Shown: positions 13,608-44,335 of the stretch, one piece after another
Position numbering within the stretch: position 1 is the first letter of the stretch
Layout of the letters: each line of letters starts with the position of its first letter
From: Rotaria sp.
Lineage: Eukaryota
Length of the DNA stretch: 45,299 nucleotides
NCBI GenBank assembly: GCA_905330235.1
Contig: CAJNUA010000162.1
Location: forward strand, 81,202 to 126,500
Direction of reading: 5' to 3'
Notes under the pieces: model-generated
Database searches by the model: none
The model's input: only the letters and a program-made list of their open reading frames with translations
Told to the model about the DNA's origin: nothing
Translations under genes and position numbers: made by a program

Positions 13608-14473
13608 ACCGATTGAACGAGGAACTGTTTGGCGTGGTGTAATCGAACATCTCCACGAGCTCTATCCTCGTGGATAATTGCAAGCATGGTGGGCCTTCAG
13701 ATCTTGCACAAGATCTCTCCAAGTACTGGAGTCACCTCAGTATCTTGGTATATCATGTACTCGAACGCTCTTCTTGATTAAGGCATCGAAAGGAAAAGAC
13801 ATTAGTCGATACTCGTGCTTCCGGAATGAGGATGAAATTTTACTTCTTCCTGGTACATACTTCGAAGTAAATAGTCAAATAATTGCGGGAGGATGGTTGC
13901 ATATTATTCATCTTCACGAATATAACCCTCCATATGAACTTCTAGTTTCACCTTTACCTGACTTGCATCCACAGAAGCATACTCCAAGTACGAAAGCCGT
14001 ACAAAAATTTAAGAAAGCAGTGTTAGACAGCAAGAAGGAAAAAACAAGCGTCCAGAGTAAACAGGTCGTGAGCCTGAATGAAGACGATTATGATGGTTCT
14101 AAATTTTGTATAGATGCACTGATTACTCATAATCAGTATCGCCTGCAACACAATACAGCAACACTAATAGCGAATGAACATTTATCTAAAGCAGCCACTG
14201 ACTGGGCACGCGAATTGATCAACATGAATGTACTTAAATATTCTCCCGACCAATGGCGACGTTATCGAAGCTCAGTGTTAGGCGAAAGCCTAGCCTATTT
14301 CATGGGACCTGTACTAAAAGGCGATCGTCAAAATGATATATGGACCGTGAAGTGCAACAACATGATCTTAGTATCTACCTTCAAGAGAAGTCCCTTCATT
14401 TTTCACAACTGGTATGGAAAAGCACCGAACAAGTCGGCTTTGATCGTTATCAAACTCTCGACAAAAAACAATG
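13608..14473 (+). CDS. ART-CAP gene exon 3, with ART catalytic core, linker and CAP domain. R motif TVWRGV; STS-like motif AFRSCTRS; catalytic ExE in TLFLIKASKGKDISRYSCFRNEDEILLLPGTYFEV; then a Lys/Ser-rich linker and a CAP/SCP domain (HNQYRLQHN...GESLAYFMGP...SQLVWKSTEQVGF). It is disrupted by an in-frame TAA at 13675-13677 and an apparent 1-nt frameshift near 14344-14372. Donor GTACAT at 14474.
   Basis: Hand alignment to rat/human ART2: YRG-17aa-FTSSS...GTLFIIKTCLGVYIKEFSFRPDQEEVLIPGYEVYQ vs WRG-19aa-FRSCTRS...RTLFLIKASKGKDISRYSCFRNEDEILLLPGTYFEV. CAP part vs GAPR-1/GLIPR2: HNEYRQKHGV/HNQYRLQHNT, GENLAW/GESLAY, HYTQVVWAKS/HFSQLVWKST. Confidence 0.6.
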
Positions 14474-14565
14474 GTACATTGATAATATTGCAACATAGAA
14501 TAAGCATAGTTTCATTGTGAATCATTTTTGATCAACTTGAAATCGAAAACTTTTCTAATCTTTAG

Positions 14566-14626: not shown

Positions 14627-16999
14627 AGTCATAAGACAATCATGGAACGGAGAATGAACTGTTATTGAAATGAAGTATTCGGTTACACTAGTTATGTATT
14701 GTGCATTTTATAGAACTAACTGCTGAATGTGACGGAGAACTGCAGTCAACTCTGGCCATCGCGAATGTAGCAATAAAATCATATGATGGTGTCGCATCTG
14801 GTAAGTATCAAAATATATATTGTTGAACGCGAGAGTATATGATAATGACCACTTTGGAAGTATTCTCTCAGTACTGATCGGAGAATCATTTCCACGATGA
14901 TTGGCATATCATTCTAGACTCATTTACATAACAACCATTTCATTGTTGTTTCATCAAACAAGAAAACTGTTTGTTTTCTTTCAGATCTCATTTTTAGATC
15001 AATTAAAATTTTCTAATAATTCTAGTTTCGTAGAATCTTGTACAAGTCATTTTATGTTTAACTGAATAGTAACTATTTTAAGCGATATAATCACAATACA
15101 AGTGAAAAAATAGTGAAGAAGGCTTTTCAAAAATGTGTTTTATACCTCATAATTATGAGGTACCTTTTTATAATAGATTGGACTCAAATGGAACCAATTA
15201 AAGGAATATTGCAAGGTAAATAAATATATATCGATTACTGGCAATCGAAATCATAGAATTTCAATTCATACGAAAAACCTTTAACAATGTTACTCTGATG
15301 AATAACTATTACTCAATTTTTCAACATAAGGTTGATAGTTATCTTTATTTTAATAATATCATTTTTATTGTGAAAAATGAAAACGTAACAGAGAATTTTT
15401 ATTTCTAGCAATAAAAAGATTTGATTTTATTCTAACAGAATAAAAAAACAACTAGAACTAAATAAGAACTAAGAAAGTGATACTTACTTAAGGTACGATA
15501 TTCAAAGTACTCAACAAAAAATCATTTCTCTTAATTGTATCGCTTAGACATTCAACAAAAACATAACACTTTCAACGATAATGTAAGGTACACATTTTTT
15601 GGATAAAAGAGACCGCAGAATTATATCCGCCTAAGTCATTCGAAACATGTATGTATTCGACAAAATTGTGCGAACTTTAAAATTTTATTCTTTATAGGGA
15701 TTATTGAAGTTATTTGGTTTTTTGAAGTCAGGATGTGAGTGTGAAGCCTGAGACAAGATTCAGACCCACACCCAAAATGTTTCAGGATATTATTTTCAAA
15801 GTCTTCACCAATGAACTTATTACTCAATGCCCACTAACTTCTTCGTTTTCGTGGATGCAACACAGAACCGTCATGGTAAGATTTGTACTTGAATCGGCCG
15901 AATGACAATAACTAAGATTCTGGATAGAAATAGAGAACAGCCTTGATCATTTCTTAACAAAAACTGAATTCATATAAAAGTATCACGTAAAACATCAATT
16001 ATACATACGTATTTACCAACGACAAAAGTATTACGAATAGTATTTTTGATATAAAATATAGAATTTGTGTTTGAAACAATAGCATAAAGATAGATATGAA
16101 TAGTACAAGAATAGACACTTACAATATAATTAGAAGTTTACAACGAAGATACAAGGTGTTCATATATAGTTTATGTTTTTCTCAATGCATTTTTGAAGAA
16201 AATGTGTGCATAAATCATTGCACGCTTCAGTGGTCACACTCTCCAGTTAAGAACATCATTTTGTAGTATGCAAATGATCAAGTTGTAGGCCTGATTTTAA
16301 CGCTAGTGAGTCAGTACTGAACATTATCAAACAGAAAATCAAACTCAAGAACTTGAAATTACAAGGTCAACAAAAGAATGCGCACGATGAAGTATAAAAT
16401 TGATCTATTAACACTGTATCTTCATTTTAAGCTTTTAATTATATTGGAAGAACCTGTTCTTGCACTATTCATATCTATCTTCATAAAATTATTTCGTCCA
16501 TAAACTATAAATTTAACATCAAAATACGATTCGGAATACTTTTCTCGTAGGTAGTATAATCAATCGTTTTGTAATGAACTTGTTTCACTACCAGCATGCA
16601 TTTCTCAGTGAGAAAGTAAATTACAAATAGATCGCGATGCAATTTTAGCAATTCGGAATTTTGTCAAACTGAATAGTTTATTACACAATAGCTGCCAAAA
16701 ATAATATTCTTTACATAACAGATACAACATTAAAACAAGGTTCATCGAATTGCAATATATTAATTATTCCAAGGATATTTCTCATGAGCACAGTTCTGTT
16801 CAATAGACCAAAACTGATAAATTCGTTTTTTTTTCTTTATTTCAATCCTGAAAACATTGTAAATATCACAGAAGTAGAATAATTCTGTCTTGTGAAATGA
16901 AACACATGATAATAATAATTCGATCGAGTTTATTAGTTATGTAAAAAAAGAAGAATTTCAAAGCTTATTTGTAAGCAAAATAAATATTAGTCTTTGTAA

Positions 17000-28269: not shown

Positions 28270-31200
28270 TCTTGTTCTCAACAGTTGACTATGATAATAT
28301 GTGTTTTAATACAGTTGAAACTTATGCTTTTTATACCATTGCTAAAATTGATTGCTTGAGTATGGTGAAAGATAGATACACGTGACAAAGGAAATGGTGC
28401 ATGTTTCATGACTGGTAACTTAATCATTCTCAACCATACCTGACGTCAGTTTTTTTTATTCTTTTTATAACACAAGGGAGAACGAAAAAAAAAGTCGCAT
28501 AAGTTTGCTCACCTCTAGAAAATGGCCTCGACAACACACGTATAAATACTATATATGGTAGTACAATGTAATGAATGACTAATCTATACATTAAAGAAAT
28601 TATGTCATTAAAGTAAGCATCTAATTCAACCTACTTTTGTTCGGATTCACTTCCTGACTTGTGTTGCATTACCTTTTGGATGTACTAAATAGAGAATATA
28701 ATAATTCGACGTTGATTGATATCATTTGCATATTGAATTACAATCTTTGTTATCCCTTAATATTGAAATCAATGGTTGTTAAGGATATTTTAGGATTCGG
28801 ATCAATGAAATGCCCTTTACTATAATATGTTATTAATTGCAAGTTTAAAAAATTTTACAAACGAATTTCAATATTTCTTTGTCAATAACCATTTTTTCTT
28901 CACTTACTCATGATTATTCATATGTGGTAGTTTCGTAATATATTGATATCGATAGAAAAGGCAATTTAAGAAAATTCTTTAGTTTACAAAAAGTGATAAA
29001 ATCAAAATTTGATAGAAATTGTGAAGAAAAACTATTTTTCTGATATGAATCTTTATAACCTAAATATGTTTTCTAACTTGTTTTCTATTTCACATACAAC
29101 ATCTTGTGTTTTTTAATAAGTCTATGCAAATATTTTTAAGTTAAAATCATTTATTTTCTCACCATCAGATCAATGATTTATCGTTAAAAAGTTTAGATTT
29201 TTTACAGCTTCGTATGGAGGTTTTATAGAATTCAATAGAACATATTGGAAGTTTAACATATAATTTTACTTCATTAAAATCTGTGACAGATAGAGAGAGA
29301 AAAATGTGTATTTTTCATCGATGAATTTTTCAAATCCACAACTGGTTCACTCTAATCATATACTCTAGTAACGTTTTCTCTCTCTTGTAACTATATTAGT
29401 ACTTCTATCTATTAAAAGACTATTTGGACAACTCTGAAGCTGAATATAGACGTCGTTCTCTGTCTTATATTCTTATCTCTTACTCTCACCATCAGCGCCA
29501 CAATGCCATGGAAACAACTATTCGAGATGCAATAGTCATGCTACTGAATTTTTCTAACGAAATTAAACTTGTTGAAAAATGTAAGTAAGTTCGAATGTAG
29601 AAGAAGTATCAGTTAATAGATATAAGAACTAATAGAAAGTTCATTAAGTTGTGTTTTCTAATAGATAAATAAATTATTCAATTAAAGTTTACTTTAACAT
29701 TGACTAGTCTTTAAAATCTTGTTACTTTTTTCTTCATGCTATGTATTTTAGAGGAAAATATCAGTTATAAATATCTTCCTGAAGGATATTCTTTTCAACT
29801 TTTCTATTTATGTTTTAGTCTTATATTCATTTTTTTGAAAACTAAATCGCTACGTTTATTGTCAACCAAAAAAGAAAAAGTTTTGATAAACATTGAATTC
29901 CAAATCTATTCATATAAAACTCAATATTTTCTACCATAACTTTCCTGGATTTTGTTGACAGTGTTATGAGATAGAGAGTAAAGAAGGAGCGAAACAATAT
30001 GAATAAATTTTATTCAAAAATGAAAATGTATTTTAATTATTGAATTATAAAATTTAACACACTGTAGAACATGTCAGTTTCTAATTGGTTTACTGTCGCA
30101 GAGTGTGAGTGTACCGCAGCCAGTATATTCCCAATACTTACCACTACTTGGGAACTTAGGTATTCGGAAATGATAAATTTTGACTACTCCATTGGCTAGC
30201 TTGTGGAAAATTCTCTTCGATAACTGAGTTTCCACATGATTTCTCATTAAAAACATCATATTGTATAATATGCTACGCTTGGAGCAAATAAAAGCAAAAC
30301 AATCGATAAATTAAAGATTTTTATGAGTCAAAGATTATCTTTTCGCGTTTAATATTACTAAACTTTTAGGAATCAATAAAATTAGCAGTCTTCTAATGTA
30401 ACTAACATCGTTTAACAAAACTCTCGAAAATTGCTATCTGAAAATTCAAGTATCTCACCGTAGACAAGGCATAGACATTCTATATTTAAAAAATTATTAG
30501 AAGTTTAGTGATGAAAGCTTTCATTTCACATGAATTGAGTCAGTCTTCTAAAACTGCAATTCAAAATCTTATTGTGAGAGACGGAACGAGAGAAACGCTA
30601 ATTTACGTTCAATCTAATTTCCCACTCTTCTTTGTTGACAAGACTCTCGGCTTATTTGTGTTCAAGTGTTATACTTCTTCTCTCTCCTCAAATTGTCACT
30701 AGAATCATGTCGCTATCCAAAAAGTTTGTCGTTACTTGTCAAAATGTTTACTGTAAAGAATACAGATTCTTGCGATACTATGCATAAACGTCTTAGATGG
30801 GACCTAGGTGAATGAGTCCAATTGCTGCTGGCAAAAGACGCTAATACTGACATTGTCTGTGAAGATTTTCTTGAGTTAAGAACTGTGTTTGAAGAAAATT
30901 GATAATAGTTGCCTGGTCTTATCGAATATTATTGGGTGTTCATGCATTTGACTAAGGTCTGTATTCAGAAACTGAAGAAGAGAAACTCAGTCGAAATAGC
31001 TGGCTTTCTCTTTTTCCAACCGTTACTTCTATGAAAAATACTAGAATTCCAACCCGATCACCATCATTGAACAAAGCCAATAAGTTTTCAACTTCATCTG
31101 CCCCCATTTTTCACTGAGGATGCATCGAATCTCGAGAAAAACCTTACAATGGGACATCAAGTTTGTCCAACGGCCCTTCCTAACACCGCTCTCTCTCTGT

Positions 31201-34200
31201 CCAACGGTGTCTTTTACTATCTTATGAAATCCAATTGCGAAGATATAGCCGTGAAGATGATGCAGACAAGAGCAAAATTTTCTGTTGAAATCCAGTTTTC
31301 AATGATGACTTTTGTACTTTCTTCTAGTAGACTCAGCTGTTCTTGAAGAAACAAATTTCCCAGCCGATGTAGTGAACAGCAACGCTTCATTCATAGCCTA
31401 AGCGAATATTTGTATTTCACTTGATTTTCTAATTAATTTGCTATGTTCTATTCTTACTGACTACCCAAAACGGGGGTCTTCTCGTGTTTGATCAATCGAA
31501 ACATTCATTTCGGGACGTTTAATTACCAATAAAAACTTCATTGACTTTTTTGAGAAACATATACCGGAAGGTTCATTTCATATCAACGAAGTTGCGAATG
31601 AACATGAGCATGGAGTATGGGTGTATGGGTTAGAGTATGATTCAACGCGAGATCTCAACCATTCCAACATCTATATTCGTTTGAATTCATTCACAAATCT
31701 GGGTAAGAAAGATGGCGGTGCTTATCACTAAAGGTGTCTACAATCGTATTTCAGTAAACTTAGGCGACAGTGACTCGGTTCTATGAAATTTCTATTGTTG
31801 ACATATTGGTGAATTCCGATTAGATCTTTGACTGTAGAATCTAGTGCACAGCATTCAGTAAGTGACATCTACCGACTGTCGCTTAAACTTGGATTCGAGT
31901 TTTAGATAATTCTTAGGATTGACACAGAAAAAGAACATATGATCATAAACATGATCTAAGCCATAAGTCTTCGACTGCTTGATTTTTCGTTGCAATTCTT
32001 CAAAGTGATGCAAACTTTGTCCTCATCATATCTGTAAAATCAATAAAAGCTCCATACTGTTGATATAACTCCAATAAATATAACACGGATCTTTTATCAT
32101 TCTCCAAGGACAGAAGATATGTCATGATTGAATTCAGTTTGGTATTTCCTGGTTGCAACAAAAATACAATCGGATATATCATGAGAAGAAAATAGATAGC
32201 ATAGTCTTGTATGCAGAAAAGTACTATTAGAAAGGTTCAATATTCTAAAAACCAATCCAAGATAATACATATTAGGTTAGTTAAATCTTGCTTTGTTTCA
32301 TCTGACTGACTTATATCTCGATAACGGTCGATTGCAAGTGGCTAGGTATTACAACAGACTGACAATATTCTTTTCGTTTCATGACGCTCTTTCAGAATTC
32401 CATTGTTCTCCATATCAACAACTAATTGTTCAAAGATCGAACATAATGTTGACAGAAATGCGATGACGTCGATTTCAACAGTTCTCGATTGTTCAACTTG
32501 TAGAAACAATACCCATGTCGAGAAATCCAGTCATTGGATCTTGTCGGATCCAACGAAAATCAACGTCGGAAATGGTCGGACTCCAATTCGTTCCAGTCGG
32601 ATCCTGCAACGAAACTTAACAGATCCGACAGGATCCGATCGGATTTTAATCATTAAGCTTCAATAGTTGTTTCCTTTCTGATTCACCATCATCTGTTAAA
32701 TATACAATTGATATAAAGATTTCTGACACCAATTGTAAAAAATCCATTGTTTGTCTTTCTTATCACCTTATTGGACAAGCAAACACGAGAGAAACCCAGT
32801 TATAGTCATTGAACATAGTGCAAACATGTTAATAATGCGTAAACTATATGCTTATACCTATATCCTTACACATATACCCTTATGCCTATACCCTTACACC
32901 CATACCCCTATGCCTATATTCTAATAATTATGTCTTTATCACTATAGCTTTCAACGGTCACAATGACAGTTATAACCTTAGTTTCATACACGTATGAATG
33001 AAGGTAAAAATTTTAGTACTTGCTAGAAATTCTTTGTTTTTTCTTTGTTTTTATAAATTCTTGAATGTTCTAAGTAGGATATAAAGTATTTTACAGCTAG
33101 ATGAATAGTACCCTAAATGTTGATAAGCCTAACGCTACCTTAAAGAAAGGCATATAGCGTACACTGTTGAGAAGATTCTTTTCACATTATCAAAAAACAA
33201 ATAGTATTGAAGATTTGCATGAAACCATGAAAAAAGGATGGGAAAGAAGAAAATGAAATGAGGAAATATTGGAAGTGTACCGTTGAATTAATTTAAGCCA
33301 AAAAGTTAATTAGATATCTTTAGTATGCTTGTTGAAAGTTGTTCATCCCTAATTGGCTATGGGTACAAGGACGATTATTATTCATCATTGGTCTTTCATT
33401 TCGATGAATTTTTTCTAACATTTTCGCATTTTTCAACTTTACTTTGAATACTTTTTGTTTTTGTGTAATGAGAAAAAATTTAAACTAAAAATGCAAGTAT
33501 TTTGAAAAGAAAGGATTGTTATGATGTGAAAGACACTCAATATGTAATGGTGCTGAAGCTGGATGAGTTCGAAACTGCGAAAGATAATAGTGTGTTATTA
33601 ATAGTGAAGATTCTTCAAGCAATAGAAAACGACTATAATAAGATGAAAATATAAATTACTGTATTGTTTGATATTGTATTTATGATAAAAACTTACTATT
33701 CGAGATATTTCCTTATAAATAAGAAATTCTATTTGGTCACACAAAAAGGACTTCTCTACAGTACCAGCTATACATCTTCCCTAGTGACAGGGATAAAGTT
33801 TTGAAAATGTAGAGTATTATTTAGATGCTTGCAAAATATTTTATAGTCTTACGTAGAGCCTTTTCAAATCTGTAATAAAAGAGAAGGAGATATGTTTTTT
33901 AGCAAGTAGTCACACTTTTGTCTCACTCTGTAGGTAACATGAGAGAACATCGACCCTTAGTCTAAAGCAAAAATAATAAAGAAAGGAGCTTGCCATGTAA
34001 TTAATAAACGGTAGAGAAGAACTGTTGACAAATAATTTTGCTGCCTCAGATGAAGCACACGAATACAAATAATAGAAGCATACCATAACGAAAAGAGACC
34101 ACTGATCATCATTCTATACATTGATACAGTCAAAATATTATGATATGAGAAATTCTTTTTGTCTAAATAACTCTTGGTCGTGTACACTACGCATATCGAA

Positions 34201-34497
34201 AGTATTTGATGTCTATTTATTACTAATTGAGCGTTCAAGTCTTGTACTCAGTTAAATGTTTATTATACTAATCTCGTGCAACACTCTGTTCGATTTGATG
34301 CCTTCATTCTTATTGCAGTAGTGAGATAAATATTAAATATGAGAAATCATTCAGTTTTATTTGAAAAATAGTGCTCTGGTAGTCATTTTGTAATAATATT
34401 CCTTCACCCTGCTCATTCATTAGCATGCATGAGCTCATTTTTTTTTGTTAGAATCTAAAAAGCATTCAATTAGAAATAAATTTATATACAGAACATA

Positions 34498-36112
34498 CAG
34501 TGGGTACCAAAATTGATCAACCACCTTAATCAATTTTTTTGTTTTGTTCATACCTCAGAAGCTAAATAAGCTAGAACTATCTGGTTTTTGTCATATACTA
34601 GTTCATGGTCTGTAGTCTACGTATACAAAATGTGAAGTCAATCTATTGATATATTCAGTTGTAATTAGCAATACAATCACGAAATGCCTTTTTTCATTGT
34701 TCCAAAATTGATCAACCACTTGTTGTTCATAATTCAGTGCGCGCCTATTTTAAAGAAAAATTTTCTTTTTGACACACCATTCTGAAGAGTAAATTGTGCT
34801 CTACACAGTACACTACTTTTTATTGCAGCTTCTTTTCAGAAAAGATCGAATAAGAGTGACTTTTAAAGTATATCGAAAGTTTTTGACAAAATGCGATTTT
34901 CTCCTCTAATTCTTAGCCAATATCAATTTTCAATGCACCATTAGAAAGAGCGTTACAAACTGCACCAGAGAGGCTGTTTTCACAGTTATTCTATCTTAGA
35001 AAGTTGACTTGGTAGATTCTTATGTGCACCAATCATGCATAGTGCTCCTTCTATTCTCTCATTCGAGCATCGAAGATGGCATAAAAACTTTTTTTAACAT
35101 TGGAAATTTGTAGAGAATTGCTTTCTCTAGAAAGTTCGTCTATTTGAAATCGACGGTACTTTTATTCTCATGATTAAAATACCGTTATTTCGCTATTAGG
35201 ATCAGAGTAAAATTTGACCGTTAACTTCAACAACAAAGTGGTTTCGAATTTCGTCAAATAAAGAACTTATTTTTCCCCACCATATCTCGCTCGGAAGAGA
35301 GTAAGACGTGGAGAAAAAAATCGATATCACATTTCATCTTACAGTACTTTATTTGACGAAATTCGAAACCACTTTGTTGTTGAAGTTAATGGTCAAATTT
35401 CACTCTAAGCCTAAGAGCGAAATAACGGTATGTTAATCATGAGAATAAAACTACCGTCGATTTCAAATAGAAGAACTTTGTAGAGAAAGCAATTCTCTAC
35501 AAATTTCCAATGTTAAAAAAAGTTTTTATGCCATCTTCGATGCTCAAATGAGAGAATAGAAGGAGCGCCATGCATGATTGGTGCACATAAGAATCTAACA
35601 AGTCAATTTTCTAAGATAGAATAATTGTGAAAACAACTTCTCTGGTGCAGTTTGTAACGCTCTTTCTAATGGTGCATTGAAAATTGATATTGGCTGAGAA
35701 TTAGAGGGGAGAATCGCATTTTGTCAAAAACCTTCGATATGCTTTAAAAATCACTCTTATTCGATCTTTTCTGAAAAGAAGCTGCAATAAAAAGTAGTGT
35801 ACTGTGTAGAGCACAATTTACTCTTCAGAATGGTGTGTCAAAAAGAAAATTTTTCTTTAAAATAGGCACGCACTGAATTATGAACAACAAGTGGTTGATC
35901 AATTTTGGAACAATGAAAAAAGGCATTTCGTAATTATGCTGCTAATAACAACTGAATATGTCAATAGATTGACTTTAAATTTTGTATACGTAGACTACAG
36001 ACCATGAACTAGTATATGACAAAAACCAGACGGTTCTAGCTTATTTAGCTTCTGAGGTATGAACAAAACAAAAAAATTGATTAAGGTGGTTGATCAATTT
36101 TGGTACCCACTG
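34498..36112. repeat. A roughly 1.6 kb near-perfect palindrome (foldback element). The arms are about 765 bp each at about 97% identity, around an 83-nt central spacer (35264-35346). The outer termini CAGTGGGTACCAAAATTGATCAACC / GGTTGATCAATTTTGGTACCCACTG are flanked by TA on both sides.
   Basis: By eye, the rc of 35347-36112 aligns base-for-base with 34498-35263, with scattered mismatches (e.g. gctagaactatctgg vs gctagaaccgtctgg). TA dinucleotides sit at 34496-34497 and 36113-36114. Confidence 0.8.
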
Positions 36113-39100
36113 TATATGTTTATAGCGACAACAATATATCACGTACGATATAACACGTAATAGAAATATTACTACGTAAAAGAAGTGTTATTACGTAATA
36201 ATAGCAGAAATGATCAAGATTACTATCAATGTTTGTTCGACGCTGAGAGAATAGAAGCGAAAGAATAAACAATTTTCAATCATCGAAGAAGAACAAAAGA
36301 GATGCACATATAACAGAAAAAAGAACGAGAAAACAAACAAACATATAGATATTCTTTTTTTAGAAACAATAAATACTTACAACAATTACAGTTATAAGGG
36401 TCATCCTATCAAGAAAAAAAATATCATGTCAACCAATACAAGTGGACACAAGCTAAGATTTTTCTCACACATAGTTGTGTTCATGTGGCAGATAATGTGA
36501 AAATCTGAGCTTAAACAACATTGAACAGATCGAGTTATCCGTTTGGCAAAATATTAAAGTCGTTCTATAAATCATTAATTATGCTATTTCGCAGAATTGC
36601 AAGATAATTGTAGTTTTTTACAAGAATATATTTATTTTCACTTCTATTCTAATGATAACAACATGTACCTGTAGCATTATGTACCGAAAGAAATCGCTAT
36701 ATATGTAACTTACCGTATAAGCACCGCTATAGTCAATAGGATAGAAGTGAAAATAAATACGGATGATAGACAAAAAGTTCTCGCAGTAGCAGTTTAAAAT
36801 TTCATCCTTATTATTTTTATTCCTGATGTTGGTCTATTCTAGAAGAGACAGTGGTTATGTATTAAATTGCCAATACGAACTTTTACCAGGATCTATTATG
36901 AAAAATTCTTAATGAAGTTTTTCGTCACATCTATTTTACAATGGAAAAACTGTGAATATACTCATATATTAAAAAACGTGTTTGTTATTAAGTCTTAATG
37001 CAACAAAAATTCATGATGAATTAACTTCTTGCTTATGGGCAAGCTTATGCTTCATTGTGTACTGTCACTGATTGTGTTCATCAATTTTTAAGTGGATGAG
37101 AATCACTAGAAGATGATCTGCGAAGTAGCCACTCAATAACTGCCATTACTCAACAAATGTTGATTCTATTAAAGATCTATCGAATGCTATTTCACATATT
37201 AGCCTTGATTATATTACTACGATCTTAGACATATCTATCACATAAAAACTATCCTGCTAGATTCTTGAAGAAATTAGCGACAAATTTAGGTAAGGAAAAA
37301 TCATCGTCAACAAAAAATAGTACAAATATGCATAATAAAAATGCATAATCTCACGTGCAAGAAATTATTCGCAATCTCAATAATCTTCAGGAGAAAAAAA
37401 TCTAAGTTATGAATCCTACGCTATGCACGGCTACCTTTACTCTTTCAGACCTTTAGTCCTTCAATTGTCTGAAACGTAGCCTTGATAATATTCAAATGCT
37501 GCTAGTTAAACTAAAGCAATAACAAGGGAGCTCAGTTCAATACCTGTTCACGAATACCAAAAGACACTGCAAAAATGGGTTCAATGGGAGAAACTTTGTA
37601 TTGAACATTATGGACACTACTTCGAACATTTACTTTAAACCGTATACCAAAATGTTTTTTTTCTATGAATAAAAATTCGAAAGTGCATGAACTTCTTGAC
37701 TATCCTATGTATATTATTGTGAAAAACTACAATAGTCTTGCAATTCCTCGAAATAGCATAATTAATGACATATAGAACGACTTTAATATTTTGTAAAACT
37801 GATAACTCGATCTTCTCAGGGTTGTTTGCGCTCACACTTTCACATACTATCTGCCACATTAACACAACTATGTGTGAGAAAAATCTCAGTTCGTGTCAAC
37901 TTGTATTGATTTACATTATATTTTTTTTTCTGATAAGATGACCATTATAACTGTAATAGTAAGGACGCTCTATCTCCTCAGAAACAAGCCAGAAACCTGA
38001 ACTTTGCTACCATAGACACAGCTCACTAAGGGCTACAAGATGCACGAAATCCCGACTAAAAAAAGTTCCGACACTTGGGAATGTTTCCTCGTCCGTCATA
38101 AACGTCGCCAAAGTGTAAAGATTCAAGCTGTTGGTAACTTGACGAGCTTTTGCAGCATGAAAATAAATCGGTAGTGTGAGAACCTTCTCTCTTTCCCATA
38201 CAAGTAGATAAGAACACAAACGAATGAAAGAAAGAAAGAAAAAAAAAAAAGCATTTCATCTGTGCAGCATGTTTGATCGTGTCAAAGTATACAGAACAAA
38301 GCCTGGGTTTCTCTTGTGCATTTTCACTCTTTGGCTTAGGCATACCAATGGTTTATCGCATGAGGCATCAACAACCGTCTCTCTTGCATTGTTCTCTTGG
38401 AGTGAAGAAGAAAGAAGAGTGGCTGCTTTTGTGTGTTGTTTTTTGTCTTGATGCTTATCGCATGAGAGTATAAGAGAACGAGCGAAAAAAAATCCTAGGT
38501 TGCCAGGAGTATAATTATAAGAGTGCAGAAAAAAAAAGAAATCATTTTATCAAGTAGTGGACAAAAAAATATAACGTTCTTTTGTACATCACCAATGAAG
38601 TCTGCCATCGTGAATACAGTGAGCAATGAGAAATTGAAAGAAATTTATAGATCAAATGAGGATGAAATTCGACTACTGGACAAAGGCGGACCTATGAAGA
38701 ACTCGAGCTGTCGTCATCTGGATGAACTCTTGGCAATCACACATATTCGTCCGGTATTCATCGTATTCAACTAAGAATATATCACAACTTTGTAATTTTG
38801 ATGATTCACTCACGAAATATACTGCCTGTACCGGAAGACGCTGCTTTCTCCCGTTTCGATTTAAGTTCTTCTGGATACGGTGACTAACTAATGGTGGCTG
38901 CGTATGTAATAGAAGAAATTAAATTGATTGGTTGAGAAAACTTCGTAGAACCAATGATTTTTTTTGCGTTGAAACTGAATTGTGATAAGCATCGATTGAG
39001 CATCGTAAATGAAGATGGTAAAGAACAAGACGAAATGGCAGTAAATGTTGCCGATGTTCCTCTTCCTTGGTGTCTCTTTGTTCAACTTTCTCGGTCGGTA

Positions 39101-39657
39101 GATCGTGTACCACTCTTATTAATGCTCAGCTAAACAATTGTGGCTGCTTCATTTTCATATTATCATCATATCAAATATGTTGGCAGCCCACTTGTATCTT
39201 TACTTTTCGAAGAGGGTAGGGGTGTGGATCAAGAAAAAAACTCGTATCTACTCTCGAAAATTCAAAAGGAATAGAATGAAAAAAAACACACTGTACCACA
39301 AGGTAGACAATGGTTTTAAATATGTGTTTCAGAAAGACACAGGTAGACGGATAGACGCACCGATAGAATTGAATTAATTACCGTCCTTCCAAATCCTACA
39401 CTGCAAAGTCTAGAGAAAATGTAAAGAACATCCAAGAGAGACGGAACGAATAGAAAAAATTCATTTTCTTCCACTTTTCAACATGAGGATGACTTGTAGA
39501 TGGATGAAATAGAAAAGTAATCTTTTTCGTCCGCGATATTTGCTAGAGGCTTATACTTTGTTGTCATCTTTAGTTTTAAGAATACAATTAAATAGTGACG
39601 ATAACGATAAATTTAATAGATATTATTCTAGATATACTTTGTTAAACATCAATTAGG

Positions 39658-42121: not shown

Positions 42122-42553
42122 GTACCTAGGCATGTATCGAGCTTTTTTTACATTATTTTCGAGTTTTTTCATACTAAAGCTGAAGTTGCGAAATAAAAAG
42201 CTGAATCGCGTAATCTAACGTATCAAAAGATTGAGAAAATTTTACTCTATCAGATGAGACATACCTCATCTCTGTGCAGCAATTCTTTTGGTTTTTGTGA
42301 GAACTTTACAAGCCGAGCCTGGCCGAGCTAAGGCTCGGTGCTCGGGCTCGGTTGAGACATTTTTTGCACTGCAAATAAAAATTAGAATAACTGCAACACA
42401 GAACTGTGGAACGTCTCATTTTGTAGAGAAATGTTTTGTCTATCTTTTGATAGGTTCAGCCGCAAGATTAAGTCTTACATTTCAGAGCTCAAGGTTATAA
42501 TATAAAAGTGTTGAAAAATAACGAAAAAAAGCTCGGTACATGCCTAAAAGTAC
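42122..42553. mobile_element. A roughly 430-bp TIR-bounded element (MITE-like) with about 28-bp inverted termini GTACCTAGGCATGTATCGAGCTTTTTTT / AAAAAAAGCTCGGTACATGCCTAAAAGTAC. It contains an internal GC-rich hairpin (GCCGAGCCTGGCCGAGC...GCTCGGTGCTCGGGCTCGG) at about 42310-42355.
   Basis: The rc of 42524-42553 aligns to 42122-42150 with about 3 mismatches. The internal sequence is non-coding. Confidence 0.45.
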
Positions 42554-43744: not shown

Positions 43745-44335
43745 TATGACAAATTCTTGATAGAGAAGAAAGATGGTAGATTCAAGCGGACTGGAACATG
43801 GGGTGGAATGTATAAAAACGTAGCACATGAGTGTTGTGACGCTGAATGTGTACGCAAGTGGAAGCCTTCGCCTGCGCAATGTTTGACAGACGATTATTAC
43901 TGTCCTTCCTGTGTACTTCATCATCGGAACAATGAGAGCCGATTTTCAGAAGAAAGATTAAAATGGACAGCTAACGTTCCAAATACGTTCTATGTATTTT
44001 CTCTTGTTGATCCAGGCACGGAAGCAAACGGTAAAATTGAAAGACCGCTGATCAAATTTGGTCGCACTCAACATGAGAATGCTTTGAAAAGGTATCCTAC
44101 ATTAGAACTAAAACAATACCAAATGAAACTCTTGTTGACCTTACGCGCAAAATTAATCACGACTACCAGAATTGAAAATTGGTGGAAGGAGCAAGCAGAA
44201 GAAAAAAATTGGTTTGTAAGATTTAGTAATAGTGATTTTCATGGACAAACCGAATGTATTCAAGTTAGTGATAATGATTTGGCACAATTGATTGCTCAAT
44301 CAAAAGAAATGGCAGCTGCCAATGAAGAAATATAG
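43745..44335 (+). CDS. Exon 2 of the hypothetical protein. It contains a Cys/His cluster (HECCDAECVRKWKPSPAQCLTDDYYCPSCVLHH), a possible zinc-binding module. Family unknown.
   Basis: ORF 43757..44335 (192 aa) extended 12 nt upstream to the acceptor. There is no recognisable homology, but it is the longest clean ORF in the last 6 kb and has an upstream splice-compatible exon. Confidence 0.35.
   Translation, partial: YDKFLIEKKDGRFKRTGTWGGMYKNVAHECCDAECVRKWKPSPAQCLTDDYYCPSCVLHHRNNESRFSEERLKWTANVPNTFYVFSLVDPGTEANGKIERPLIKFGRTQHENALKRYPTLELKQYQMKLLLTLRAKLITTTRIENWWKEQAEEKNWFVRFSNSDFHGQTECIQVSDNDLAQLIAQSKEMAAANEEI

What the first reader, a model, noticed from the sequence alone, without database searches (positions are those of the whole stretch)
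34498..36112. 1.6-kb TA-flanked palindrome (foldback) capable of forming a roughly 765-bp hairpin
The two arms are reverse complements at about 97% identity, with an 83-nt loop. The termini CAGTGGGTACC... are bounded by TA on both sides, like Tc1/mariner-type foldback elements. Long near-perfect hairpins of this kind are the substrates of endo-siRNA (hpRNA) pathways in animals if transcribed. They are also fragile or recombinogenic sites and are often collapsed or mis-assembled.
Basis: seen in the sequence. Interest (0 to 1): 0.6.

Follow-up and report, generated by a model that had tools for sequence, protein, structure and literature searches.

The report
Palindromic non-coding Tc1-like transposon, rotifer
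The 1.6-kb palindrome is real, but it is an ordinary kind of thing: a protein-less, hairpin-shaped "cut-and-paste" transposon of the Tc1/mariner type in the genome of the bdelloid rotifer Rotaria sp. Silwood-2, with no evidence yet of any regulatory role.

Summary
The element spans 34498-36112 (1,615 bp). It has two 770-nt arms that are 95.5% complementary (35 substitutions, no indels) and a 75-nt spacer. Its ends read CAGTGGGTACC, with TA on both sides.

The window comes from the bdelloid rotifer Rotaria sp. 'Silwood-2'. The same palindrome, base for base, is present in other assemblies of that species. A second copy about 4% diverged sits in an intron of an OTU-domain gene; that intron lacks the element in a paralogue and in the sister species.

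The two copies share 15 left-versus-right arm differences (only 2 sites show the opposite pattern). The palindrome therefore spread as a unit. It is neither an amplification or assembly artefact nor a local duplication.

The element has no ORF above 42 aa and no Pfam hit. It has no tandem sub-repeats, which sets it apart from Drosophila Foldback. Each arm carries a 21-bp motif twice, 195 bp apart, as in IR/DR Tc1-like elements.

My best reading is a non-autonomous palindromic Tc1/mariner element, analogous to C. elegans Tc6/Tc7/PALTA. The partner transposase, the copy number, and any transcription or small RNAs could not be tested. Interest is low.

The parts
34496..34497 (.). Left flanking TA (presumed target-site duplication)
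   Evidence: Read directly from the sequence. The second copy in L004 is also preceded by TA.
34498..35267 (+). Left arm, 770 nt, starting CAGTGGGTACC
   Evidence: It is 95.5% complementary to the right arm with no indels, and the first 80 nt are perfect.
34504..34524 (+). Outer copy of the 21-bp motif GTACCAAAATTGATCAACCAC (candidate transposase-binding site)
   Evidence: The 18-nt core occurs 4 times in the window, all inside the element, with 0.11 expected.
34699..34719 (+). Inner copy of the motif (GTTCCAAAATTGATCAACCAC), 195 bp inside the outer copy and in the same orientation
35268..35342 (.). 75-nt unique spacer (hairpin loop), with minor internal pairing
   Evidence: The same spacer is present in copy B with 2 substitutions.
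35343..36112 (-). Right arm, 770 nt, the reverse complement of the left arm, ending GGTACCCACTG
35891..35911 (-). Inner motif copy in the right arm
36086..36106 (-). Outer motif copy in the right arm
36113..36114 (.). Right flanking TA (presumed target-site duplication)
   Evidence: Read directly from the sequence.

Best explanation
This is a non-autonomous, almost wholly palindromic DNA transposon of the Tc1/mariner (IS630-Tc1-mariner) type in the bdelloid rotifer Rotaria sp. 'Silwood-2'. It encodes nothing. To move, it would need a Tc1-like DDE transposase made by another element. That transposase would recognise the 21-bp motif present twice in each arm (at nt 7-27 and nt 202-222 from each end, an IR/DR-like layout), pair the two ends, cut at the CAGTG termini and reinsert at a TA dinucleotide, duplicating it. 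The palindromic body was made once, most plausibly by a strand or template switch during repair synthesis on a parent element, and was then copied to new sites as a whole.

Shown here: the anatomy; the lack of coding capacity; at least 2 diverged copies at different loci, each preceded by TA; absence of the second copy from the orthologous and paralogous introns; and inheritance of arm asymmetries by both copies.

Inferred: the superfamily of the transposase, its binding to the 21-bp motif, the template-switch origin, and the current state of activity. Activity is probably nil, given 4.5% divergence between arms and about 4% divergence between copies. If the element is transcribed it would form a roughly 770-bp hairpin RNA, but nothing shows that this happens or matters.
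For: The host is identified by a fem-1 ORF in the window that is 100% identical to a Rotaria sp. Silwood2 protein.

The palindrome is identical (0 differences over 1.67 kb) in L001 and L003, and its centre is also assembled in L004 and L005.

A second copy lies in L004. It is 1,612 bp long with 64 differences, has a full palindrome with the same spacer, and has an unrelated left flank. That flank is the 5' half of an OTU-domain gene, and the element starts 17 nt into its intron: GTAAGAATCGACATA, then TA, then CAGTGGG. The equivalent intron is short and uninterrupted in a Silwood-2 paralogue (L008) and in the Silwood-1 orthologue (L010/L011).

In the four-arm comparison, 15 sites show left=left differing from right=right across the two copies, 2 sites show the crossed pattern, and 0 sites show both arms of one copy differing from both arms of the other. 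The palindrome therefore predates the split of the copies and was propagated whole.

The element does not code. Its longest ORF is 42 aa. The six-frame Pfam scan of 33301-38100 gave no credible hit, only one chance-level match (EssA, E = 0.17, below its cut-off). A three-frame pseudo-protein found nothing among 5.8 billion proteins.

Each arm carries two same-orientation copies of the 21-bp motif, 195 bp apart. This matches the published definition of IR/DR Tc1-like ends: terminal repeats over 200 bp holding two binding sites as direct repeats (PMC3680223).

The published Tc1 end is TA-CAGTGCTGGCCAAAAAGATATCC, and the end here is TA-CAGTGGGTACCAAAATTGATCAACC. They share 11 of the first 15 bases: CAGTG and CCAAAA at the same positions.

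Palindromic, long-repeat, TA-flanked non-autonomous Tc1/mariner derivatives are a described class: Tc6, Tc7 and the PALTA families, 'essentially foldback structures' (PMC3814204). A foldback-like DNA transposon insertion has already been reported in bdelloids (PMC2861651).
Against: No transposase with matching ends was found, so assignment to the superfamily rests on TA flanks, terminal bases and the motif layout only.

Only two copies are documented. The second is known from a single contig whose right end switches to the flank of the first copy, so its right-hand TA and flank were not seen.

No precise empty site for the window copy was obtained. TA is its own reverse complement and is common in 31% GC DNA, so a 2-bp 'duplication' is weak evidence taken alone.

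Scans for the motif in the JGI metagenome, IMG/VR and GTDB contig collections found no relatives, only two chance bacterial hits. Those collections are not expected to hold this rotifer's genome.
Confidence: 0.85

Rival explanations
1. The element is a functional hairpin-RNA (hpRNA) locus. It would be transcribed, fold into a roughly 770-bp double-stranded RNA and be diced into endo-siRNAs that silence the cognate transposon family or host targets. This is compatible with a transposon origin; the rivalry concerns whether it has a role.
For: The hairpin is extremely stable. Bdelloids have unusually large Argonaute and RdRP families, averaging 21.5 and 38.9 copies (PMC7943196). Copy B lies inside an intron and would be co-transcribed with its host gene if that gene is expressed.
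Against: There is no evidence of transcription. No gene is annotated over or next to the window copy within about 10 kb in L001, and there is no Rfam match. The arms have drifted apart by 4.5% with a neutral-looking pattern of 25 transitions and 10 transversions. No arm-to-arm homogenisation has occurred since the copies split (0 sites of that pattern), so nothing suggests selection to keep the stem.
Confidence: 0.1
2. The palindrome is an artefact of whole-genome amplification or assembly. Multiple-displacement amplification (MDA) chimeras are typically inverted fold-backs, and all Silwood-2 assemblies come from MDA-amplified single animals.
For: The assemblies are SPAdes assemblies of REPLI-g-amplified single individuals (PMC7943196). 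Contigs break or change context at the element in L002, L004 and L005.
Against: An amplification fold-back gives two identical arms, whereas these differ at 35 sites. The same structure, spacer included, recurs in several assemblies. A second copy, 4% diverged, has the same centre and shares 15 arm-specific differences. The precise CAGTG...CACTG termini, the TA flanks and the internal motif layout are not features of chimeras.
Confidence: 0.02
3. It is a member of the Foldback (FB) group proper, like Drosophila FB or FB-like Galileo, rather than a Tc1/mariner derivative.
For: It has very long inverted repeats occupying nearly the whole element. A 'foldback-like' DNA transposon has been noted in bdelloids.
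Against: There are no tandem sub-repeats in the arms (TRF at its lowest threshold). The bases beyond the ends (CAGAACATA and TATATGTTT) share only TA, so there is no 7-9-bp duplication. The termini are CAGTG with a Tc1-like CCAAAA block.
Confidence: 0.03
4. It is a one-off local inverted duplication of host DNA (a non-mobile palindrome) that happens to be bounded by TA.
For: Only two copies were documented, and the window copy lies in a gene-poor, repeat-rich 10-kb stretch.
Against: A second copy has an unrelated left flank, inside an intron that is intact in relatives. The arm sequence matches nothing else in the window or in the flanks. The ends are sharply defined and identical at both ends of both copies.
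Confidence: 0.02

Closest known systems
C. elegans Tc6, Tc7 (CeleTc1) and the PALTA families: palindromic, TA-flanked, non-autonomous Tc1/mariner derivatives
   Same: Nearly the whole element is an inverted repeat around a short unique centre. There is no coding capacity, the flanks are TA and the termini are of the CAGT type. PMC3814204 lists these as Tc1/mariner-associated elements with unexpectedly long inverted repeats, some of them 'essentially foldback structures'. From my own memory, not checked here: Tc6 is about 1.6 kb with arms of roughly 765 bp, which is almost the same geometry.
   Different: The host phylum differs. Sequence homology to the nematode elements could not be tested because no nematode sequences are reachable. 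The doubled 21-bp motif in each arm is not, to my knowledge, a described feature of Tc6. Copy number here is unknown (at least 2).
IR/DR-type Tc1-like transposons (Sleeping Beauty, Frog Prince, Minos)
   Same: Each end carries two same-orientation copies of a roughly 21-bp motif about 200 bp apart, with the outer copy a few bases from the terminus. The target is TA (definition in PMC3680223).
   Different: Those elements have terminal repeats of 200-250 bp flanking a transposase gene. Here the inverted repeat runs on for 770 bp and there is no gene. Binding of the motif by any protein is untested.
Goblin (Aedes aegypti), a Stowaway-like MITE with repeats lengthened by inverted duplication of subterminal sequence
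   Same: It provides a documented route, template switching during gap repair followed by end joining, by which a Tc1/mariner element gives a derivative with over-long inverted repeats. The authors suggest that the same process gives whole-element hairpins (PMC3814204).
   Different: Goblin's repeats are 54 bp and its parent (Ozma) is known. Here the parent is unknown, so the origin cannot be reconstructed.
Drosophila Foldback (FB) and Galileo
   Same: They have long hairpin-forming terminal repeats and are recombinogenic.
   Different: FB and Galileo arms are built of tandem sub-repeats and make longer target duplications. Neither feature is present here.
Animal hpRNA / endo-siRNA loci
   Same: They have the same geometry: a long, near-perfect inverted repeat with a short loop.
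   Different: Such loci are defined by transcription and Dicer products. Neither could be examined here.

Membership tests
Tc1/mariner (ITm) superfamily, non-autonomous derivative | TA target-site duplication | tested here: met
   TA directly abuts both ends in the window. TA precedes the left end of copy B. No longer direct repeat is present in the flanks. One caveat: without an empty site at the same locus, the 2-bp duplication is inferred, not shown.
Tc1/mariner (ITm) superfamily, non-autonomous derivative | Terminal inverted repeats with Tc1-type termini (5'-CAGT...) | tested here: met
   Both ends read CAGTGGGTACCAAAATTGATCAACC. The published Tc1 end is CAGTGCTGGCCAAAAAGATATCC (PMC3680223). 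They share 11 of the first 15 bases.
Tc1/mariner (ITm) superfamily, non-autonomous derivative | Mobilised by a DD34E/DD34D transposase with matching ends (autonomous partner exists) | not testable with these tools
   No nucleotide search of rotifer genomes is available. No transposase remnant lies in or beside the element. Motif scans of the metagenome, viral and prokaryote collections found no relatives.
Tc1/mariner (ITm) superfamily, non-autonomous derivative | Several copies at unrelated sites; insertion polymorphism or empty sites | tested here: inconclusive
   There are two diverged copies with different left flanks. Copy B is absent from the paralogous and orthologous introns. However, copy B's right flank was not recovered, and no empty allele of the window copy was found.
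IR/DR subgroup of Tc1-like elements | Two transposase-binding sites per end, as direct repeats within a terminal repeat of over 200 bp | tested here: inconclusive
   The sequence layout is met: a 21-bp motif at nt 7-27 and nt 202-222 of each arm, with 1 mismatch. Whether these are protein-binding sites is untested.
MITE (Stowaway-like) | Small size (tens to a few hundred bp) and high copy number | tested here: not met
   The element is 1,615 bp and its copy number is unknown (at least 2). It is better described as a long palindromic non-autonomous element than as a MITE.
Foldback (Drosophila FB-like) | Arms composed of tandem short sub-repeats | tested here: not met
   TRF at minimum score 30 finds no array within 34498-36112.
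Foldback (Drosophila FB-like) | Target duplication of about 9 bp | tested here: not met
   The flanks CAGAACATA and TATATGTTT share only TA.
hpRNA / endo-siRNA locus | Long inverted repeat able to form an extended double-stranded RNA | tested here: met
   There are 747 in-register arm-to-arm pairs and the minimum free energy is -1241 kcal/mol.
hpRNA / endo-siRNA locus | Transcribed and processed into siRNAs of about 21 nt | not testable with these tools
   No expression or small-RNA data are reachable. No gene is annotated over the window copy and there is no Rfam family match.

The most novel reading that the evidence does not exclude
The palindrome is more than junk. When read through, for example as part of the intron of the OTU-domain gene that hosts copy B, it would yield a roughly 770-bp hairpin RNA. 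That RNA would feed the greatly expanded bdelloid Argonaute/RdRP machinery and act as a built-in trigger that silences its own Tc1-like family in an asexual lineage. A second possibility is not excluded: the different left-hand contexts seen in L002 and L004 may be real structural variants among wild clones, produced by breakage at the palindrome centre or by recombination between copies, rather than assembly errors.
Probability: 0.12. Interest if true: 0.45.

Novelty: new member of a known kind. Interest (0 to 1): 0.15.

Why it matters
Taken as found, it matters little. It adds one well-described family of palindromic, non-autonomous Tc1/mariner-type elements to the transposon catalogue of bdelloid rotifers, where DNA transposons and a foldback-like insertion are already known.

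It has two practical uses. First, it marks places where the short-read Silwood-2 assemblies are unreliable, because contigs break or join wrongly at this element. Second, its sharply defined 21-bp doubled motif gives a handle for finding the partner transposase.

It would gain interest only if small-RNA data showed it to be a hairpin source of siRNAs, or if the alternative junctions proved to be real rearrangements in an asexual animal.

Tried and rejected
1. Searching for more copies by DNA. I scanned for the motif GTWCCAAAATTGATCAACCAC in three collections. The JGI metagenome contigs gave two hits that are chance 21-24-nt matches in GC-rich bacterial contigs. IMG/VR viral contigs gave none, and GTDB genome contigs gave none. 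None of these collections is expected to contain this rotifer, so the negatives say little about copy number.

2. Searching for copies through spurious gene calls. I searched a 1,623-aa pseudo-protein (three-frame translation of the element, stops as X) against 5.8 billion proteins. Nothing scored at E <= 0.001.

3. Transposase remnants. A six-frame translation of 33301-38100 against Pfam at E <= 1 gave only one chance-level hit, EssA at E = 0.17.

4. An empty site for the window copy. All contigs carrying the downstream 98-aa gene also carry the element, or part of it. All three homology searches were then spent, so the orthologous locus in Silwood-1 could not be fetched.

5. C. elegans on first sight. 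The geometry recalled Tc6, but the window contains major vault protein exons and a fem-1 ORF that matches Rotaria at 100%.

6. Amplification or assembly artefact, Drosophila-type Foldback, and local inverted duplication were all rejected; see the rival explanations.

7. The bacterial promoter/terminator scan is not meaningful for a eukaryote and was ignored.

8. Two papers are not held in the library: Arkhipova & Meselson 2005 and Dreyfus & Emmons 1991. Statements about Tc6 dimensions therefore rest on my memory.

Full report

Yes. The repeat finder reports one outstanding inverted repeat in the window: arms 34495-35267 and 35343-36115, 773 nt, with 75 nt between them. An ungapped local alignment of the left arm with the reverse complement of the right arm gives 738/773 identities (95.5%), with 35 substitutions and no indels.

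The element proper runs from CAGTGGGTACC at 34498 to GGTACCCACTG at 36112. That is 1,615 bp, made of two 770-nt arms and a 75-nt spacer (35268-35342). TA lies immediately outside each end. Its figures of 97% identity and an 83-nt loop are slightly off.

Chance is not an issue. The longest exact inverted match in the window is 117 nt, against 16-20 nt in 20 dinucleotide-preserving shuffles. The 27-nt terminus occurs only at the two ends, with 0 matches expected.

As a single strand the element folds into one long hairpin. Of 766 predicted pairs, 747 are arm-to-arm in register, with a minimum free energy of -1241 kcal/mol using RNA parameters and -829 using DNA parameters.

**2. Where does the window come from?**

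The window is about 31% GC and has interrupted eukaryotic genes: an alpha/beta hydrolase, fem-1, major vault protein exons and a dynein-light-chain-like ORF. The 465-aa fem-1 ORF is 100% identical to a protein of Rotaria sp. Silwood2, and the next best hits are other Rotaria and Adineta species. The host is therefore a bdelloid rotifer sequenced by Nowell et al. 2021 (PMC7943196).

That paper says the Silwood-2 assemblies are SPAdes assemblies of single wild-caught animals whose DNA was amplified by multiple displacement (MDA). Each has a 'reference' and a 'maxhap' version, the latter re-assembled at k = 121. This is relevant because MDA is known to produce inverted chimeras.

**3. Is the palindrome an artefact?**

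No. Looking up the 98-aa gene 3.5 kb downstream retrieved the same locus from five NCBI assemblies of this species.

- In L001 (GCA_905329745.1, animal RPSE411) and L003, the palindrome and its flanks are identical to the window, with 0 differences over 1.67 kb.
- L005 is a contig that begins inside the left arm but contains the centre and the whole right arm.
- L004 contains a complete palindrome (see section 4).

An amplification fold-back would have two identical arms, whereas these differ at 35 positions. I could not establish how many distinct animals the GCA_9053321xx/22xx accessions represent, because they are not listed in the main text.

**4. A second copy, and evidence that the palindrome moved as a unit.**

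In L004 the element (1,612 bp) differs from the window copy at 64 positions spread from 34526 to 35976. From there on it is identical to the window, right flank included. Its left flank is unrelated to the window.

That flank is the 5' half of an OTU-domain gene. An ORF there reads ...HSVEVTGDG, followed by GTAAGAATCGACATA, then TA, then CAGTGGG. Homologous proteins continue ...VTGDGACAFRA.... In a Silwood-2 paralogue (L008) the same position holds a short intron, GTAAGAATCGA(TA)n...TTAAAAG, followed by the ACAFRA exon. In the Silwood-1 orthologue (L010/L011) the intron reads GTAAGAATCGACATACATAGATC... and is about 75 nt long with no element. Copy B therefore sits 17 nt into an intron that is intact in relatives.

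The downstream OTU exon is absent from L004 and from the window. L004 is therefore either a mis-join or a real recombinant between copy B and the window copy. A mis-join is plausible: the two copies are identical over the last 136 nt or more of the right end, which is longer than the k-mer of 121.

I compared the four arms: window left, window right, L004 left and L004 right. The site patterns were as follows:

| Pattern | Sites |
|---|---|
| Left arms agree, right arms agree, left differs from right | 15 |
| Crossed pattern | 2 |
| Both arms of one copy differ from both arms of the other | 0 |
| Private to one arm (window left 8, window right 10, L004 left 29, L004 right 11) | 58 |

The palindrome, already with slightly different arms and with the same spacer (2 differences in 75 nt), therefore existed before the two copies separated. 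Since then the arms have evolved independently, with no detectable arm-to-arm conversion. This is what is expected of a foldback element that transposes as a whole. It is not expected of two independent inverted duplications.

**5. What kind of element is it?**

It does not code. No ORF inside exceeds 42 aa. The six-frame translation of 33301-38100 against Pfam gave only one chance-level match (EssA, E = 0.17, below its cut-off) and no transposase domain. A three-frame pseudo-protein of the element matches none of 5.8 billion proteins. Rfam finds nothing in the window.

The arms contain no tandem sub-repeats, and the flanks share nothing beyond TA. These two points separate it from Drosophila Foldback and Galileo.

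Each arm carries a 21-bp motif twice in the same orientation: GTACCAAAATTGATCAACCAC at nt 7-27 and GTTCCAAAATTGATCAACCAC at nt 202-222. The 18-nt core occurs four times in the window, all inside the element, with 0.11 expected. This is the layout that defines IR/DR-type Tc1-like ends, namely terminal repeats over 200 bp holding two transposase-binding sites as direct repeats (PMC3680223).

The published Tc1 end is TA-CAGTGCTGGCCAAAAAGATATCC. It shares CAGTG and the CCAAAA block at the same positions with the end found here, 11 of the first 15 bases.

From memory, the Tc1/Tc3 target consensus is CAYATATRTG. The reconstructed window site (AACA-TA-TATG) and the left half-site of copy B (CATA-TA) both fit it well. 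In AT-rich DNA this is weak evidence, and I did not verify the consensus.

**6. Most likely mechanism.**

The element is a non-autonomous cut-and-paste transposon. A Tc1-like transposase encoded elsewhere would bind the doubled motif, pair the ends, cut at CAGTG and insert at TA. This step is inferred.

Its palindromic body most probably arose once, by a template switch during repair synthesis on a parent element. That route was proposed for the Aedes MITE Goblin and, by extension, for whole-element hairpins such as the PALTA families (PMC3814204). This step is also inferred, and because the parent is unknown it cannot be reconstructed.

Three observations suggest an old and probably immobile family: 4.5% divergence between arms, about 4% divergence between copies, and a ratio of 25 transitions to 10 transversions.

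**7. The small-RNA idea.**

The hairpin potential is beyond doubt. Bdelloids have strikingly expanded Argonaute and RdRP families (PMC7943196). Copy B, being intronic, would be co-transcribed if its host gene is expressed.

Nothing available here shows transcription or small RNAs. No gene is annotated within about 10 kb around the window copy in L001, and the arms show no sign of constraint. I keep this reading as a low-probability add-on.

**8. Assembly behaviour.**

- L002 (GCA_905330535.1, animal RPSE809) is a 1.37-Mb scaffold. It retains only the right arm from window position 35394 onward, joined without Ns to unrelated DNA. Three of its arm positions carry left-arm states.
- L004 switches context at the element.
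- L005 ends inside an arm.

Whether any of these reflects a real rearrangement cannot be decided without the reads.

**9. Comparison with what is known, and novelty.**

The closest described things are the palindromic, TA-flanked, non-coding Tc1/mariner derivatives of C. elegans: Tc6, Tc7 and PALTA1/2/4. Tc6, as I recall it, has almost the same geometry, but I could not check this because the paper is not held. A foldback-like DNA transposon insertion and diverse DNA transposons are already reported in bdelloids. MITE-like and unclassified repeats are part of the published Rotaria annotations.

This is therefore a new member of a known kind in a new host, not a new kind of system. Membership in the Tc1/mariner superfamily is supported by the ends, the TA flanks and the motif layout. 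It lacks the decisive item, a matching transposase.

**10. Verdict.**

Overall interest is low (0.15).

Noticed in passing
window 36382-37960 (element about 36389-37953): A second non-coding element with terminal inverted repeats lies only about 270 bp downstream of the palindrome. Its repeats are about 250 nt long and 86% identical, around roughly 1.08 kb of unique sequence. Its ends read CAGTTATAAGGGTCATCC..., with TA on both sides. It looks like another non-autonomous Tc1/mariner-type element of a different family. No Pfam hit was found in any frame.
   Followed up: partly
window 16014-16553 and 42127-42546: There are two smaller, older foldback-like elements. One is 540 bp with arms of about 160 nt at 78% identity. 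The other is 420 bp with arms of about 170 nt at 71%, and its ends read TAGGCATGTATCGAGC. With these, the 45-kb window holds four hairpin-shaped non-coding elements.
   Followed up: partly
L002 5736 (window 35394); L002 1-5735: In the RPSE809 reference assembly (GCA_905330535.1) the left arm, the spacer and the first 51 nt of the right arm are missing. The remaining right arm is joined, without Ns, to unrelated DNA that carries a 429-aa single-exon ORF. Three arm positions there carry left-arm states. This is either a mis-join at the palindrome centre or a real breakage and rearrangement.
   Followed up: partly
L004 3767-4862 and 4844-6455: Copy B interrupts an OTU-domain gene just after the codons for the GDG of its catalytic motif, 17 nt into the intron. 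The gene's downstream exon is not on the contig. The left arm of copy B has many more private changes (29) than the other three arms (8-11), which hints that a third copy may be mixed in or that there are errors.
   Followed up: partly
window 29658-39657: About 10 kb around the palindrome has no annotated gene in L001, which is unusual for the gene-dense bdelloid genome. The stretch holds at least the two Tc1/mariner-like elements, so it appears to be a small transposon-rich island.
   Followed up: no
window 43757-44335 (+): A 192-aa ORF (MIEKKDGRFKRTGTWGG...CPSCVLHH...) has no Pfam match. Only a 70-aa piece of it is annotated as a gene in the NCBI assemblies. Its nature is unknown.
   Followed up: no
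window 13678-14520 (+): A 280-aa ORF has weak, sub-threshold Pfam hits to both NAD:arginine ADP-ribosyltransferase and the CAP domain. It may be two fused exons or a chimeric read-through of an intron.
   Followed up: no
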